Origin: Octopus vulgaris
Taxonomy: Eukaryota
Assembly: GCA_951406725.2 (NCBI GenBank)
Contig: OX597826.1
Coordinates: 66,340,001-66,404,000, forward strand
Direction: 5' to 3'
DNA length: 64,000 nucleotides
Shown: piece by piece, positions 8,749 to 63,196 of the stretch
Position numbering within the stretch: position 1 is the stretch's first letter
How the letters are laid out: each line of letters opens with the position of its first letter
Made by a program: the position numbers and the translations under genes
Notes under the pieces: model-generated
Told to the model about the DNA's origin: nothing
Database searches by the model: none
What the model saw: the letters and a program-made list of their open reading frames with translations, nothing else

Positions 8749-8879
8749 AACTGCTCTTCTTTCTCTATTCTAGAAATTACTAATATTTTACACATGTATT
8801 CATATATTTTCTGAACTGTTTAAAATAAATAAATAGAATATTATAATGTCTAACAACTGATGAATACTTAATTTAGCAA

Positions 8880-9369
8880 CCCCGAAAGGATGAAAGGCAA
8901 AGTCGACCTCGGCGGAATTTGAACTCAGAAGGCATTGCTGGACGAAATACCTATTTCTTTACTACCCACGCAAAGGGCTAAACACAGAGGGAACAAACAA
9001 GGACAGACAAACGGATTAAGTCGATTATATCGACCCCAGTGCGTAACTGGTATTTATTTAATCGACCTCGAAAGGATGAAAAACAAAGTCGACCTCGGCG
9101 GTATTTGAACTCAGAACGTAACGGCAGACGAAATACCTATTTCTTTACTACCCACAAGGGGCTAAACACAGAGGGGACAAACAAGGACAGACAAACGGAT
9201 TAAGTCGATTACATCGACCTCAGTGCGTAACTGGTGCTTAATTTATCGACCCCGAAAGGATGAAAGGCAAAGTCGACCTCGGCGGAATTTGAACTCACAA
9301 CGTAACGGCAGACGAAATACCGCTAAACATTTCGCCCGGCGTGCTAACGTTTCTGGCAGCTCACCGCCC
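8880..9369 (-). mobile_element. SINE family B with internal tandem reiteration (~185-bp block, ~3 times)
   Basis: GAAAGGATGAAAGGCAAAGTCGACCTCGGCGG recurs at ~8884, 9070 and 9254. Confidence 0.85.
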
Positions 9370-14383: not shown

Positions 14384-14543
<160 letters not shown>

Positions 14544-14554
14544 CACTATTATTA

Positions 14555-14768
14555 GGGTGGCGAGCTGGCAGAATCGTTAGCACGCCGGACGAAATGCTTA
14601 GCGGTATTTCGTTTGTCTTTGCGTTCTGAGTTCAAATTCTGCCGAGGTCAACTTTGCCTTTCATCCTATCGGGGTTAATAAATTAAATACCAGTTGCGTA
14701 CTGGGGTCGATCTAATCGACTGGTCCCCTCCTCCCAAAAGTTCGGGCCTTGCGGCTAGAGTAGAAAAG

Positions 14769-14838
<70 letters not shown>

Positions 14839-15052
14839 CGGTGAGCTGGCAGAACCGTTAGCACGCCAGGCAAGATGCTTAGCGGCATTTCGCCCGTCTT
14901 CTTTACATTCTGAGGTCAAATAGTGCCGAGGTCTGGTTTGCCTAACATCTTTTCGGGGTCGATAAACTAAGTACCGGTTTAGCACTGGGGTCGATGTAAT
15001 CGACTCGTGCCCACCCCTCCAAATTCCAGGCTTTGTGTCTATAGCAGAAATG
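14555..15052 (+). mobile_element. Two tandem SINE family B copies separated by (ATT)n
   Basis: Heads at ~14555 and ~14837. Confidence 0.85.
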
Positions 15053-17141: not shown

Positions 17142-17494
17142 TGATGATGATGATGATGATGACGATTTCCTACAGTTACAACAACAACAGCGGCGACTCC
17201 CACAGCAATATAAGAAGATAAGTTAATGTAAAAGTATATATGTAAAAGCATGTATTTGTCTGGGTATGTGTACTTTTGACTGGCCGACATTTTCCATCTA
17301 TCTACTGGAGTGTTTAAACAGCACACAGACACACGCACACATACATACACACGCGTGTGTATATGTACACATTCACACACATATATTTAATGACAGTTGC
17401 AGTAAAAATTAGATGAATATTTCTGTCCGGGCACGTGTACTTTTTAAGAATGCATGCAACCTGCTATTGCATCTGCATTATATAATACAGTAGA

Positions 17495-18092
17495 TGGATC
17501 TCCGCCGTTTTTCGACGATGAGTAGTTATATTTTGGTACCAAGACCCTTAACAGAATTACCGGTTACCGTTGGTCGGTTTTCGTAACCAATCAACCACTC
17601 TACTCAAAATCTGGGAAGCTTCCTGTTATTTGTGCGATTCGGGACCACCAGCTCAGACTGTTTGGTCATGTTGCTCTGCAGTGTATCATAAAGTAAATGG
17701 ATCTCCGCCGTTTTCGACGATGACTTGTCATCTTTTGGTACCAAGACCCTTCGCAGAATTATGGGTTACCATTGGTCGGATTTCGTAACCATTCAACCAC
17801 TCTACTCAGAAACTGGGATGCGTCCCATTACTTGTGCGATTCGGGACCACCAGTTCAAACTGTTAGGCCATATTGCTCTGCAGTATATATAATAATAACA
17901 TAAAGGGATCTCCGACGTTTTCGACGATGTGTAGTCATCCTTTGGTAAACAAGAACCTTCGCAGGATCATAGCTTACCATTGGTCGGATTTCGTATCCAG
18001 CGATCAAATATTCTCAAAATCTGGGATTCGTCTTGTTACTTGTATGATTAGGGAACACCAAGTCAGAATGTTTGGCCATTTCGCCCGGCGTG
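17495..18092 (+). repeat. Three tandem ~205-bp copies of an RTE-like LINE ORF fragment
   Basis: GGATCTCCG at 17496, 17699 and 17906; translates to LRRIIAYHWSDFVS...IREHQVRMFGHFAR (RTE C-terminal region). Confidence 0.75.
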
Positions 18093-28879: not shown

Positions 28880-29395
28880 TAATAATCCTTTCTACTATTG
28901 GAACAAGGCCTGAAATTCAAGGGAGGCGAATAATCAGTTACATCGACTTATTTCTTTACAGTCAACAAGGAGTTACACATAGAGGGGACAAACAAGGACA
29001 GACAAACGGATTAAGTCTATTATATCGATCCCAGTACGTAACTGGTACTTAATTTATCGACCCCAAAAGGATGAAAGGCAAAGTCGACCTCGGCGGAATT
29101 TGAACTCAGAACGTAACGGCAGACGAAATACCGCTAGGCATTTCGCCCAGTGTGCTAACGTTTCTTATTTCTTTATTGCCCACAAGGGACTACGCACTGA
29201 GGGAACAAAACAAAGACAGACAAACGGATTAAGTCAATTATATAGTCCCCAGTACGTAACTGGTACTTAATTTATCGACCCCAAAAGGATGAAAGGCAAA
29301 GTCGACCTCGGCGGAATTTGAACTCAGAACGTAGCGGCAGACGAAATACCGCTAGGCATTTCGCCCAGTGTGCTAACGTTTCTGCCAGCTCGCTG
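28880..29395 (-). mobile_element. SINE family B with internal duplication
   Basis: A ~220-bp block is present twice. Confidence 0.85.
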
Positions 29396-30410: not shown

Positions 30411-30444
<34 letters not shown>

Positions 30445-30456
30445 TGTATATATATG

Positions 30457-30515
<59 letters not shown>

Positions 30516-30521
<6 letters not shown>

Positions 30522-31058
30522 AAGAAGGGTAGTAATAATTAGTTACTACCAGGTGCCCAGCACAAAAGACGAATTAGTCATAAGACAAAATATTAATCAT
30601 AAAGAAAAATATTATTCATGTAGTAATACAATTAAGGGCTCCTAAATTAGGATGCCGAGTACTGGGAACACAAAAGGGAGATGAATTTATCGAGAGTGAA
30701 AATCAAAAACGTTTACCGATAACTTTACACCTCGGACTGATCAGTTTCTGCCTCTTTCTAGCAAAACACAGAATATGTTTGCTAAGGCTGGCTTCATCAA
30801 CGAGTCGCCTAAATTGAATCAAGGTCTGCAGCGATGTAAGACCATGTGTTGATCTCGACTACTAGCAGATCTTAACTTTTCAAATCTCTGCGCAGACGCA
30901 AAACTTACACGGCAGTATAGGGCATGCCGGGAAGAATTTTACGAATAAATCCATCAAGTAATATGCGAATATAAACAAGAAGGGTAGTAATAATTAGTTA
31001 CTACCAGGTGCCCAGCACAAAAGACGAATTAGTCATAAGACAAAATATTAATCATAAA
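30516..31058 (-). mobile_element. Retrozyme-like element: 455-bp unit with 88-bp perfect direct repeats and an internal HHR
   Basis: 30516-30603 is identical to 30971-31058; (TA)n flanks. Confidence 0.75.
30731..30804 (-). ncRNA. Type I hammerhead ribozyme, C3U variant
   Basis: ctcg-TTGATGA-a-gcc...tagcaaa..tttgcta...ggc-a-GAAA-ctgatcag-TC-cgag; GUC triplet, palindromic stem III. Confidence 0.7.
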
Positions 31059-31063
31059 TATTA

Positions 31064-31117
<54 letters not shown>

Positions 31118-33826: not shown

Positions 33827-36800
33827 GCATAGAATTAACTGCCGTATTTGTTTAGTATATATAGAGTTTATAGAGCGGTTAAAAATTTTCGGTATGCAAA
33901 TTAGGGACTCCAGCATAGAATTAAATGCTGTAATTGTTGGGTATATATAGAGTTTATATGGTGCTTAAAAATTTTCGGTATGCAAAATTAGGGACTCCGG
34001 TATAGAATTAACTGCTGTATTTGTTGAGTATATATAGAGTTTTTAGAGCGGTTAAAAATTTTCGGTATGCAAAATTAGGGACTCCAGCATAGAATTGACT
34101 GTTATATTTGTTGAGTATATATAGAGTTTATAGAGAGGTTAAAAATTTACGGTATGCAAATTAGGGACTCCAGCATAGAATTGACTGTTATATTTGTTGA
34201 GTATATATAGAATTGATGGAGCGGTTAAAAATTTTCGGTATGCAAATTAGGGACTCCAGCATAGAATTAACTGCTATATTTGTTGAGTATATATAGAGTT
34301 TATAGAGAGGTTAAAAATTTACGGTATGCAAATTAGGGACTCCAGCATAGAATTAACTGCTATATTTGTTGAGTATATATAGAGTTTATAGAGCGGTTAA
34401 AAATTTTGGGTATGCAAATTAGGGACTCCAGCATAGAATTGACTGCTATATTTGTTGAGTATATATAGAGTTTATAGAGCGTTAAAAATTTTGGGTATGC
34501 AAATTAGGGACTCCAGCATAGAATTAACTGCTATATTTGTTGAGTATATATAGAGTTTATAGAGCGTTTAAAAAATTTTCTGTATGCAAATTAGGGACTC
34601 CAGCATAGAATTGACTGCTATATTTGTTGAGTATATATAGAGTTTATAGAGCGGTTGAAATTTTCGGTATGCAAATTAGGGACTCCAGCATAGAATTGAC
34701 TGCTATATTTGTAGAATATATATAGAGTTTATAGAGCGGTTGAAATTTTCGGTATGCAAATTAGGGACTGCAGGATAGAATTGACTGCTATATTTGTTGA
34801 GTATATATAGAGTTTATAGAGCGGTTAAAAATTTTCGGTGTGCAAATTAGGGACTCCAGCATAGAATTGACTGCTATATTTGTTGAGTATATATAGAGTT
34901 TATAGAGCGGTTAAACATTTTGGGTATGCAAATTAGGGACTCCAGCATAGAATTGACTGCTATATTTGTTGAGTATATATAGAGTTTATAGAGCGGTTAA
35001 AAATTTTGGGTATGCAAATTAGGGACTCTAGCATAGAATTAACTGCTATATTTGTTGAGTATATATAGAGTTTATAGAGCGGTTGAAATTTTCGGTATGC
35101 AAATTAGGGACTCCAGCATAGAATTGACTGCTATATTTGTAGAATATATATAGAGTTTATAGAGCGGTTGAAATTTTCGGTATGCAAATTAGGGACTCCA
35201 GCATAGAATTGACTGCTATATTTGTTGAGTATATATAGAGTTTATAGAGCGGTTAAAAATTTTGGGTATGCAAATTAGGGACTCCAGCGTTAAAAATTTT
35301 CGGTATGCAAATTAGGGACTCCAGCATAGAATTGACTGCTATATTTGTTGAGTATATATAGAGTTTATAGAGCGGTTAAAAATTTACGGTATGCAAATTA
35401 GGGACTCCAGCGTTAAAAATTTTCGGTATGCAAATTAGGGACTCCAGCATAGAATTGACTGCTATATTTGTTGAGTATATATAGAGTTTATAGAGCGGTT
35501 AAAAATTTTCGGTATGCAAATTAGGGACTCCAGCATAGAATTAACTGCTATATTTGTTGAGTATATATAGAGTTTATAGAGCGGTTAAAAATTTACGGTA
35601 TGCAAATTAGGGACTCCAGCATAGAATTGACTGCTATATTTGTTGAGTATATATAGAGTTTATAGAGCGGTTAAAAATTTTGGGTATGCAAATTAGGGAC
35701 TCCAGCGTTAAAAATTTTCGGTATGCAAATTAGGGACTCCAGCATAGAATTGACTGCTATATTTGTTGAGTATATATAGAGTTTATAGAGCGTTTAAAAA
35801 TTTTCGGTATGCAAATTAGGGACTCCAGCGTTAAAAATTTTCGGTATGCAAATTAGGGACCCAGCATAGAATTGACTGCTATATTTGTTGAGTATATATA
35901 GAGTTTATAGAGTGGTTAAAAATTTTGGGTATGCAAATTAGGGACTCCAGCATAGAATTGACTGCTATATTTGTTGAGTATATATAGAGTTTATAGAGCG
36001 GTTAAAAATTTTCGGTATGCAAATTAGGGACTCTAGCATAGAATTAACTGCTATATTTGTTGAGTATATATAGAGTTTATAGAGCGGTTAAAAATTTTGG
36101 GTATGCAAATTAGGGACTCCAGCATAGAATTAAGTGCTATATTTGTTGAGTATATATAGAGTTTATAGAGCGGTTAAAAAGCCCAGATTTTCGGTATGCA
36201 AATTAGGGACTGTAGCATAGAATTGACTGCTATATTTTTGAGTATATATAGAGTTTATAGAGCGTTTAAAAATTTTCGATATGCAAACTAGAGACTCCAG
36301 CATAGAATTAACTGCTATATTTGTTGAGTATATATAGAGTTTATAGAGCGGTTAAAATTTTCCGGTATGCAAATTAGGGACTCCAGCATAGAATTAACTG
36401 CTGTATTTGTTGAGCATATACAAAGTTTACAGAGCGGTTAAAAATTTTCGGTCTGCAAATTAGGGACTCCAGCATAAAAATTGACTGCTATATTTGTTGA
36501 GTATATATAGAGTATATATAGAGTTTATAGAGCGGTTAAAAATTTTCGGTATGCAAATTAGGGACTCCAGCGTTAAAAATTTTCGGTATGCAAATTAGGG
36601 ACTCCAGCATAGAATTGACTGCTATATTTGTTGAGTATATATAGAGTTTATAGAGTGGTTAAAAATTTTGGGTATGCAAATTAGGGACTCCAGCATAGAA
36701 TTGACTGCTATATTTGTTGAGTATATATAGGGTTTATACAGCGGTTAAAAATTTTGGGTATGCAAATTAGGGACTCCAGCATAGAATTAAGTGCTATATT

Positions 36801-37789
36801 TGTTGAGTATATATAGAGTTTATAGAGCGGTTAAAAATTTTCGGTATGCAAATTAGGGACTGTAGCATAGAATTGACTGATCTCTTTGTTGAGTTTATAG
36901 AGCGTTTAAAAATTTTCGATATGCAAACTAGAGACTCCAGCATAGAATTAACTGCTATATTTGTTGAGTATATATAGAGTTTATAGAGCTTTTAAAGATT
37001 TTCCGTGTGCAAATTAGGGACTCCAGCATAGAATTAACTGCTGTATTTGTTGAGCATATACAAAGTTTACAGAGCGGTTAAAAATTTTCGGTCTGCAAAT
37101 TAGGGACTCCAGCATAGAATTGACTGCTATATTTGTTGAGTATATATAGAGTTTATAGAGCGGTTAAAAATTTTCGGTATGCAAATTAGGGACTCCAGCG
37201 TTAAAAATTTTCGGTATGCAAATTAGGGACTCCAGCATAGAATTGACTGCTATATTTGTTGAGTATATATAGAGTTTATAGAGTGGTTAAAAATTTTGGG
37301 TATGCAAATTAGGGACTCCAGCATAGAATTGACTGCTATATTTGTTGAGTATATATAGGGTTTATACAGCGGTTAAAAATTTTGGGTATGCAAATTAGGG
37401 ACTCCAGCATAGAATTAAGTGCTATATTTGTTGAGTATATATAGAGTTTATAGAGCGGTTAAAAATTTTCGGTATGCAAATTAGGGACTGTAGCATAGAA
37501 TTGACTGATCTCTTTGTTGAGTTTATAGAGCGTTTAAAAATTTTCGATATGCAAACTAGAGACTCCAGCATAGAATTAACTGCTATATTTGTTGAGTATA
37601 TATAGAGTTTATAGAGCTTTTAAAGATTTTCCGTGTGCAAATTAGGGACTCCAGCATAGAATTAACTGCTGTATTTGTTGAGCATATACAAAGTTTACAG
37701 AGCGGTTAAAAATTTTCGGTCTGCAAACTAGGGACTCCAGCATAGAATTAACTGCTGTATTTGTTGAGTATATACAGAGTTTATAGAGC
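33827..37789 (+). repeat. 86-bp tandem satellite (~44 full monomers plus six 37-bp deletion monomers)
   Basis: Unit AGCATAGAATTGACTGCTATATTTGTTGAGTATATATAGAGTTTATAGAGCGGTTAAAAATTTTCGGTATGCAAATTAGGGACTCC; period 86 (34081 to 34167). Confidence 0.97.
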
Positions 37790-38978
37790 AGTAGGACTGC
37801 TTTGGCAGTAATTACAGCTTGAATTCTACTCGCTAAAGTTTGAATTTTTTCCAAAGGAATTTTTTTCTATTCATCAGCTAAACACTCTCTAGTTCTTGAT
37901 GGTGGAGGATATCCATTCCTTACTTGTTTTTTTTTCTAAAATGCACCATAAATGTTCAATAATATTGAGATCTGGGGACTGTGGTGACTAGATAAGATGT
38001 TCAACTTCACTAGAATGTTCCTCGTGCTACTCAGTAATAACTTTTGCCGTGTGAATTGGTGCATTGTCATCCTGAAATATTGCGTTTCACTCTGGAAACA
38101 GTTCCGCAACCACAGGATGAATTTAACCAGATGAAATGCTTAAATAGTCTTCACTATTAATTCTGCCATGTAGGAAAACCATTGGGCCGGGGATTTCTAA
38201 GATATAACCCCACCCCAGATCATCACAGATCCTCCTCCATGTTTTACAGTTGGAAGAAGGCAGTCTAGGTCAAATGCTTCTTTTGGCTGTCTCAACACGT
38301 ATACTCGGCAGGTAGTCGGAAATAAGGTAAAGGACGACTCGTCTGAGAAAATAATATTCTTCCACTCCCCTGGGGACCAATTCTGTAGGTGTTTACTCTC
38401 CCCTAAACGCTTTGCAACGTTTGTTCTTGAAAGTAGTGGTTTTCTGATTGCAGCCCTCCCGTGAAATCCGGTTTTGTGCAGCTCCCTGTGAATAGTTTTT
38501 GTGGAAACTGGGTTCTCGAGGTGGTCATTAAGCTCTGCAGTAAATTTGTACTTTTGTGATCCTTTCTAACAATTCGCATAAGAGTCCGACGGTCTCTATC
38601 TGAAAGTTATGGTTTTCTTCCAGAATTTTGCTTCGATGAGGACGTTTTTCCCTCTTTCTCAAAGGTTGTCATTACTTTCGAAACAGTACTTATTGACACA
38701 CTAAACATTTCGGCTGTTTTTATTATGCTAGCGCCTGCCATGCGAGCACCAACAATTTGTACTATTTGAAAGTCCGATAGATCTGTTATTTTAATGAATT
38801 TTAATTATCTTTTTCTGATGATATCCAAAAAGAAGCAGCAATTTTAGCAAACATATTAAGCAACACTAATAATAGATAAAAAACATAAAAATAAACAAGC
38901 ATTTGACAGTTTTATAGATATTTCAAAATTATAATGCTATTGTTGCTAGTTGTTTCCATTATTTTGTCCAACCCCTGT
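37790..38978 (-). mobile_element. Decayed Tc1-like transposon (DD34E type) lacking its 3' TIR
   Basis: IIFSDESSF, FQDDNAPIH, SPDLNIIEHLW; N-terminal IVGARMAGAS; 5' TIR TA-CAGGGGTTGGACAAAATAATGGAAAC. Confidence 0.92.
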
Positions 38979-39646: not shown

Positions 39647-39960
39647 TATATATAAATACATTAAAAGGCTTCCAAATAAAGAAGCGAGTGCTAGATACAC
39701 AAAAAGGCGATAAATTTATGAAATGGAATGAAAATCAAAAACGTTTACCAACTCAGCTTAGTTGGTAAACGTTTTTGATTTTCATTCCATTTCATGAATT
39801 TATCCCCTTTTTGTGTATCTAGCACTCGCTTCTTTATTTGATTTGGAGGCCTTTTAATGTATTTATATATAAATAACGTATAGTCTAATGACTAATTAGT
39901 CTTTTGTGCTAGGTCACTGGTAATAATAATTTATTTTTATTACCCTATTTACTATGTTTA
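39647..39960. mobile_element. Fold-back element (~107-bp arms, 6-nt loop) related to the 30516 family
   Basis: 39647-39753 is inverted at 39760-39871; shares GAAAATCAAAAACGTTTACC and AGCACAAAAGAC.AATTAGTCAT with 30516-30720. Confidence 0.8.
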
Positions 39961-63124: not shown

Positions 63125-63196
63125 TGATTCGGGCGGGAGTCGAACCTGTATCGACTGCTTGGAAGGCAACCATGTTAACAATTACACCACCGTCGC
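63125..63196 (-). pseudogene. tRNA-Gly(TCC) pseudogene
   Basis: GCGACGGTGGTGTAATTGTTAACATGGTTGCCTTCCAAGCAGTCGATACAGGTTCGACTCCCGCCCGAATCA: Gly anticodon arm TGC-CTTCCAA-GCA intact, but acceptor and T stems mispaired and D-loop GG lost. Confidence 0.85.

What the first reader, a model, noticed from the sequence alone, without database searches (positions are those of the whole stretch)
30516..31058. 1.2 turns of a 455-bp unit with a central hammerhead, consistent with a circular RNA template
Seen: identical 88-bp direct repeats with period 455, and an HHR (TTGATGA core, ACTGATCAGT palindromic stem III, GUC site) in the middle of the unit rather than at its end; (TA)n flanks. Inference: this permuted redundancy is expected if reverse transcription ran past its start on a ~455-nt circle or tandem multimer. 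Repeat identity suggests a recent event.
Basis: partly seen in the sequence, partly recalled or inferred. Interest (0 to 1): 0.72.

Follow-up and report, generated by a model that had tools for sequence, protein, structure and literature searches.

The report
Hammerhead retrozyme copy, 1.2 units long
A 455-base repeat unit with a hammerhead ribozyme motif sits as 1.2 head-to-tail copies in a TA microsatellite; it is likely an ordinary non-coding passenger of Penelope-like retrotransposons, and its shape cannot tell a circular from a linear RNA template.

Summary
An exact 90-nt direct repeat has period 455. A minus-strand type I hammerhead lies mid-unit, and its descriptor matched 1 of 3000 shuffles. 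The unit belongs to an abundant family: 545 and 506 contigs were laid in two runs. Most family depth has the canonical C3, where this copy has U3. The unit-to-unit junction also occurs in a diverged copy, so it is neither unique to this locus nor a plain artefact. A relative at 39.7-40.0 kb shares the (TA)n 3' end and carries a 5' inversion, the typical layout of Penelope-like elements (PLEs). No coding signal or credible protein relative was found. The best reading is a non-autonomous PLE-type retrozyme, reverse-transcribed from a more-than-unit RNA and cut short 88 nt into the second unit. The circular-template idea was published for PLEs in 2014 (PMC4209133). It is not separable here from an uncleaved tandem transcript, which in vitro work favours (PMC11167929). 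The proposed back-junction read test cannot separate them. Verdict: new member of a known kind, modest interest.

The parts
30411..30518 (.). (TA)n microsatellite at the element's 3' end; likely insertion target
   Evidence: 54 copies; target role inferred from PLE literature (PMC8557442 passages)
30516..30970 (-). one full 455-nt unit, apparently non-coding; sense strand is minus
   Evidence: whole unit covered by family contigs in two runs; no coding signal; circular fold z=-3.2 against 100 shuffles
30514..30603 (-). 3' copy of the 90-nt repeat (3' end of the element)
   Evidence: exact match
30969..31058 (-). 5' partial copy of the unit's 3' end (the pseudo-LTR-like overlap)
   Evidence: exact match
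30729..30806 (-). type I minimal-type hammerhead motif: core 30800-30794 (U3 in this copy), extra A after A9, long stem II domain, GAAA 30748-30745, 10-nt palindromic helix III, predicted cut after 30735
   Evidence: family variation; cleavage not tested
30528..30550 (-). 8-bp hairpin about 12 nt before the 3' end (second copy at 30983-31005); likely part of the reverse-transcription start signal
   Evidence: predicted in the focal copy and in the relative, with one G-C to A-U double change read from the sequences; z-scores weak (-1.7, -0.5); a family indel and loose ends fall in or at the edge of the loop
31043..31074 (.). 13-nt short duplication at the 5' junction
   Evidence: period 13, 2.5 copies
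31067..31115 (.). (TA)n microsatellite on the 5' side
39655..39960 (+). diverged relative: same 3' end into (TA)n, truncated just downstream of the hammerhead cut position, with an inverted 5' arm and no hammerhead
   Evidence: 68% over 188 nt, E 4e-13; inverted arm 77% over 96 nt

Best explanation
This is a 1.2-unit copy of an abundant 455-nt repeat with a hammerhead motif and no detected coding role, likely a non-autonomous Penelope-type retrozyme pasted into a TA microsatellite by reverse transcription. Inferred steps: an autonomous Penelope-like element supplies the nicking enzyme and reverse transcriptase. Copying starts at a fixed internal site beside the terminal hairpin, runs through the hammerhead, passes the start site again, and stops after 88 nt. 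This needs an RNA longer than one cleaved monomer. I favour an uncleaved tandem transcript slightly over a circle (about 55:45). This locus has one hammerhead with U3, so it would not release a circle by itself and is probably a dead-end daughter copy.
For: Exact repeat and TA flanks. Non-random hammerhead with the PLE-type extra base after A9 and palindromic helix III (features as described in PMC4209133); the palindrome gives a 10-bp dimer duplex at -13.6 kcal/mol. Family: 545 and 506 contigs laid in X1 and X3. Family variants fit the fold: C3 in 92% and 80% of depth, change at the free N7, the cut triplet stays NUH, and a stem I change gives G-U. One X7 contig carries two reciprocal changes and a 2-nt loss that keep helix III palindromic, if the loss is at 30740-41. 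Junction shared: X3 record 15 bridges 30970/71 with 45 and 44 nt on the sides and 6 differences. X3 record 16 (depth 1012) starts 9 nt before the junction and runs 155 nt past it. X5 record 17 (depth 2) runs 134 nt past it. The relative has the same 3' end and a 5' inversion. Partial tandems, 5' inversions and microsatellite bias are PLE hallmarks (PMC8557442). Internal start of reverse transcription at a stem-loop, with hammerhead cleavage not required, was shown in vitro for one PLE (PMC11167929).
Against: No autonomous partner or sequence link to a PLE ORF was found. No array with two hammerheads was seen, and no listed piece spans the whole unit. Only 1 of the 24 piece rows shown meets the tool's 31-nt bridging rule; 1045 rows were not shown. 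Lack of variants at the invariant core is not significant alone (P 0.13-0.36). A stem II position (11.3) is changed to a mismatch in 61-66% of depth. Rfam does not score the motif. Other dispersed repeats in the window also form short tandems, with no hammerhead hit in my scans, so local duplication does happen in this genome.
Confidence: 0.72

Rival explanations
1. Same element, but the template was specifically a 455-nt circular RNA, cut by dimeric hammerheads from a tandem transcript and closed by a host ligase. This is a sub-case of the best explanation.
For: Metazoan retrozymes accumulate as circles and RtcB closes them in vitro (PMC7229834 passages and discussion). The unit folds better than shuffles as a circle (z=-3.2). 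Family variants keep the hammerhead fold. Overlap lengths differ between pieces.
Against: A linear uncleaved multimer gives the same DNA product. For the one PLE tested in vitro, hammerhead mutants inserted normally and no reads ended at the cut (PMC11167929). Only 1 of 9 Xenopus dimers cleaved in vitro (bioRxiv 10.64898/2026.07.22.740005). The plus strand also folds at z=-2.1.
Confidence: 0.33
2. Two successive 5'-truncated insertions (or a template jump) at the same TA site produced the overlap from linear templates of a longer element.
For: PLEs tend to insert next to earlier copies (PMC6765202 passage). The junction carries a short TA microhomology.
Against: The same junction occurs in diverged contigs from another run, at depth 106 and 1012, so it is inherited from a template and not made here. 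The two copies are identical.
Confidence: 0.08
3. A single-unit insertion gained the extra 88 nt by local DNA duplication or by mis-assembly near the microsatellite.
For: Perfect identity of the repeat. TA-rich flanks. A 13-nt duplication at the same edge. Other short tandems of dispersed repeats in the window. The exact locus could not be checked in reads.
Against: Junction-crossing contigs exist in independent runs, some running further than 88 nt. The overlap starts at the family's 3' end.
Confidence: 0.1
4. The unit is a decayed piece of reverse-transcriptase or endonuclease coding sequence and the hammerhead is a chance match.
For: By eye, some minus-strand translations recall PLE protein motifs (recalled, no call). 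One stop codon is absent in the family majority.
Against: No relevant Pfam hit in six frames. phmmer gave one hit, to a highly repetitive protein through summed weak matches. 0 of 16 candidates scored for the plus frame. Variants fall evenly on codon positions. Descriptor chance was 1 of 3000.
Confidence: 0.05

Closest known systems
Metazoan non-LTR retrozymes (PMC7229834; bioRxiv 10.64898/2026.07.22.740005)
   Same: Short low-GC non-coding unit with one type I hammerhead, head-to-tail arrangement, many copies. The size is at the top of the 150-450 bp range and within the 51-972 bp range of the preprint.
   Different: Only 1.2 units with one hammerhead here, so it is a monomer-type copy, not an 'active' dimer by the preprint's rule. 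The hammerhead is of the minimal PLE type, not the canonical type. Circles are not shown.
Penelope-like elements: pseudo-LTR, partial tandem and minimal hammerhead (PMC4209133, PMC8557442, PMC3846280, PMC11167929)
   Same: Partial tandem from a 5'-truncated upstream copy, 5' inversion in a relative, microsatellite target, extra base after A9, palindromic helix III, short stem I, and a stem-loop near the 3' end.
   Different: No RT or GIY-YIG ORF. The hammerhead lies outside the duplicated part because the overlap is only 88 nt. No partner element was identified.
Non-autonomous Chlamys elements such as MRC1 (PMC8557442 passage)
   Same: Non-coding PLE derivatives that form pseudo-LTRs and head-to-tail insertions.
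   Different: They occur in green algae, and the paper's abstract says N-terminal-endonuclease PLEs lack canonical hammerheads.

Membership tests
Non-LTR retrozyme | Type I hammerhead in the unit | tested here: met
   descriptor and shuffles; family variants; no Rfam hit
Non-LTR retrozyme | Short non-coding unit of low GC | tested here: met
   455 nt; no coding signal; AT-rich sequence
Non-LTR retrozyme | Many copies in the genome | tested here: met
   545 and 506 contigs at several identity levels; summed depth is not a copy number
Non-LTR retrozyme | Tandem arrays with two or more hammerheads | tested here: inconclusive
   this locus has one; the junction is shared and two pieces run on 134 and 155 nt past it, short of the second hammerhead; no genome held
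Non-LTR retrozyme | Self-cleavage and circular monomer RNA | not testable with these tools
   only contigs were available, no run on record as RNA
Autonomous Penelope-like element | ORF with RT and GIY-YIG endonuclease | tested here: not met
Penelope-type insertion (works like) | Partial tandem, 5' truncation or inversion, shared 3' end | tested here: met
   two loci in this window only
Penelope-type insertion (works like) | Homology to the terminal repeat of an autonomous PLE | not testable with these tools
   no eukaryote genome or repeat library held; motif scans of public collections found no relative
Plant LTR retrozyme | Type III hammerhead inside each LTR | tested here: not met
   the hammerhead is type I and lies outside the repeat

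The most novel reading that the evidence does not exclude
This is an abundant, dispersed retrozyme family that spreads by rolling-circle reverse transcription of a 455-nt circle from one fixed start beside a conserved hairpin. Its many insertions, with overlaps of varying length, would record the circular step directly and make the 2014 circle model for Penelope-type elements testable in one genome.
Probability: 0.3. Interest if true: 0.55.

Novelty: new member of a known kind. Interest (0 to 1): 0.3.

Why it matters
Whether PLE-type elements are copied from circles or from uncleaved tandem transcripts is still open in the papers read. A short, abundant family with a defined start site and a conserved hammerhead is convenient material for that question. 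The single locus adds no new mechanism. If the host is an octopod (my recalled guess from its other repeats, not tested), searches 'Penelope + octopus + hammerhead' and 'retrozyme + octopus' listed no paper describing such a family. I saw listings only, and most subscription journals and repeat libraries are not covered.

Tried and rejected
Own genome: none held, so copies could not be mapped with flanks. Rfam: no hammerhead match. Motif scans: the first motif gave 0 hits in metagenome, viral and prokaryote collections. The second gave 1 metagenome hit, a bare 21-mer with no wider similarity. Protein origin: rejected; P0001 is a tandem-repeat protein and the best pairwise match is 10 of 25 residues, E 0.009. 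Expression: no RNA holder listed. Run X7 is only guessed to be RNA; 4 contigs were laid and none bridges the junction by 31 nt. This is no evidence either way. The depth dip at 30725-30743 was considered as truncation at the cut and rejected: depth is as high on both sides and variants cluster there. One search used a misplaced structure string and is discarded; one search replaced it. Earlier scan notes: nothing returned. One search returned only unrelated cephalopod papers.

Full report
Observation. The window is microsatellite-rich DNA with no long non-repetitive ORF near the finding; it looks like an animal genome, and no whole genome is held. Positions 30514-30603 and 30969-31058 are identical over 90 nt with period 455, between (TA)n runs at 30411-30518 and 31067-31115. 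A 13-nt duplication marks the right edge.

Hammerhead. It is a type I motif on the minus strand: core 30800-30794, an extra A, a long stem II domain, GAAA, a 10-nt palindrome, and a predicted cut after 30735, with 4 bp of stem I. My descriptor hit 1 of 3000 shuffles of the unit. Rfam did not score it. The active monomer fold is 4.8 kcal/mol above the MFE, while the palindrome can form a 10-bp duplex between two molecules. This matches the minimal, dimer-type hammerheads of Penelope-like elements (PLEs) described in PMC4209133 (parts 1-2 of 4 read).

Family. Twenty of 24 listed runs hold part of the unit. I laid 4 of them on 30604-31066. X1 and X3 gave 545 and 506 contigs spread over identity bands, with cover in all 29 bins; X5 gave 2 and X7 gave 4. 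Mapping the 39 listed differences in 30604-30970 (3 rows were not shown) onto the ribozyme: C3 is the majority (92% and 80% of depth), N7 varies, the cut triplet stays NUH, and a stem I change gives a G-U pair. One X7 contig has reciprocal changes and a 2-nt loss that keep helix III palindromic. Against this, position 11.3 of stem II becomes a mismatch in 61-66% of depth, and the absence of changes at the invariant core alone is not significant (P 0.13-0.36). The focal copy is therefore a U3 variant of a family with a canonical core. Reduced activity of U3 is inferred from the known 3-8 pair and was not tested.

Junction. The unit-to-unit junction at 30970/71 is not private. X3 record 15 bridges it with 45 and 44 nt on the sides and differs at 6 letters. 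X3 record 16 (depth 1012) begins 9 nt before it and continues 155 nt past it. X5 record 17 (depth 2) continues 134 nt past it. Only the first meets the tool's 31-nt rule; 24 rows were shown and 1045 were not. No piece shows two hammerheads in a row.

Relative in the window. 39655-39960 holds a diverged copy of the 3' part (68% over 188 nt). It ends at the same place in (TA)n and folds back into an inverted arm some 10-18 nt downstream of the cut position. Both copies keep an 8-bp hairpin near the 3' end, with one pair changed on both sides, though the folding z-scores are weak.

Coding. Six frames gave no relevant Pfam hit. phmmer gave one spurious hit to a repeat protein. The plus-frame search scored 0 of 16 candidates. 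Variants fall evenly over codon positions.

Mechanism. Shown: the layout, the motif, the family and the shared junction. Inferred: a PLE endonuclease nicks (TA)n, and reverse transcription starts inside the RNA next to the hairpin. It then crosses the hammerhead and the unit junction and stops 88 nt into the second unit. A cleaved linear monomer would give at most 219 nt, so the template was an uncleaved multimer or a circle. PMC4209133 already proposes circles as templates for more-than-unit PLE insertions, and PMC7229834 shows circles for other retrozymes (passages and discussion). PMC11167929 found internal initiation at a stem-loop, no need for hammerhead cleavage, and no reads ending at the cut (parts 1-2 of 4). 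The DNA cannot decide between them; I put it at about 55:45 for the linear multimer. Reads across the GUC site cannot decide either.

Age. Zero differences in 90 nt allow up to about 3% divergence. The copy differs from the majority letter at 12 of 367 positions outside the repeat. If those had arisen after insertion, two unchanged 88-nt copies would have P about 0.003, so they probably come from the source lineage, or the runs are from other populations or species. The insertion is plausibly young but is not dated.

Comparison. It works like a PLE partial tandem and fits the non-LTR retrozymes, which a 2026 preprint derives from PLE terminal repeats (10.64898/2026.07.22.740005, parts 1-3 of 5). 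Partial tandems, 5' inversions and microsatellite bias are described in PMC8557442 and PMC3846280 (passages); PMC6765202 was seen as passages. It is not an autonomous PLE. Arrays, cleavage, circles and the partner remain untested. No supplements were opened; hammerhead lists in the supplements of these papers might include this family. The window holds further hammerhead-like motifs of other families, some in short inserts beside TA runs, so such elements appear routine in this genome. Verdict: real, correctly described, a new member of a known kind; interest 0.3.

Noticed in passing
window 7935 (-) and 40061 (+): Two more minimal hammerhead motifs of other families. The 7935 one has a perfect core, a 7-bp stem II and the same extra A on each side of stem II as the focal one. 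The 40061 one lies in a short insert between TA runs.
   Followed up: partly
window 30354 (-), 45681 (+), 55802 (-), 56540 (-): Four copies of one hammerhead-like motif with a changed core; the 30354 copy lies in a short insert between TA runs directly left of the finding.
   Followed up: partly
window 39764-39915 (+): The relative shows possible splice signals (GT start, branch-like motif, pyrimidine run, AG). The focal copy has GG at that AG. Penelope terminal repeats can hold an intron. Seen by eye only.
   Followed up: no
window 33827-37789: Satellite array of 86-nt units with 37-nt partial units.
   Followed up: no
window 8865-9321, 14488-15012, 17465-18079, 28947-29383: Short tandems (periods 184, 281, 202, 218) of other repeats, with no hammerhead hit in my scans.
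   Followed up: partly
window 63125-63196 (-): tRNA-like sequence, the only Rfam hit at gathering score.
   Followed up: no
window 38197-38565 (-): ORF fragment that resembles a Tc1/mariner transposase by eye (recalled motif).
   Followed up: no
window 30604-30970: Six of the 12 majority differences are C-to-T and three are A-to-G on the element's sense strand; not explained.
   Followed up: no
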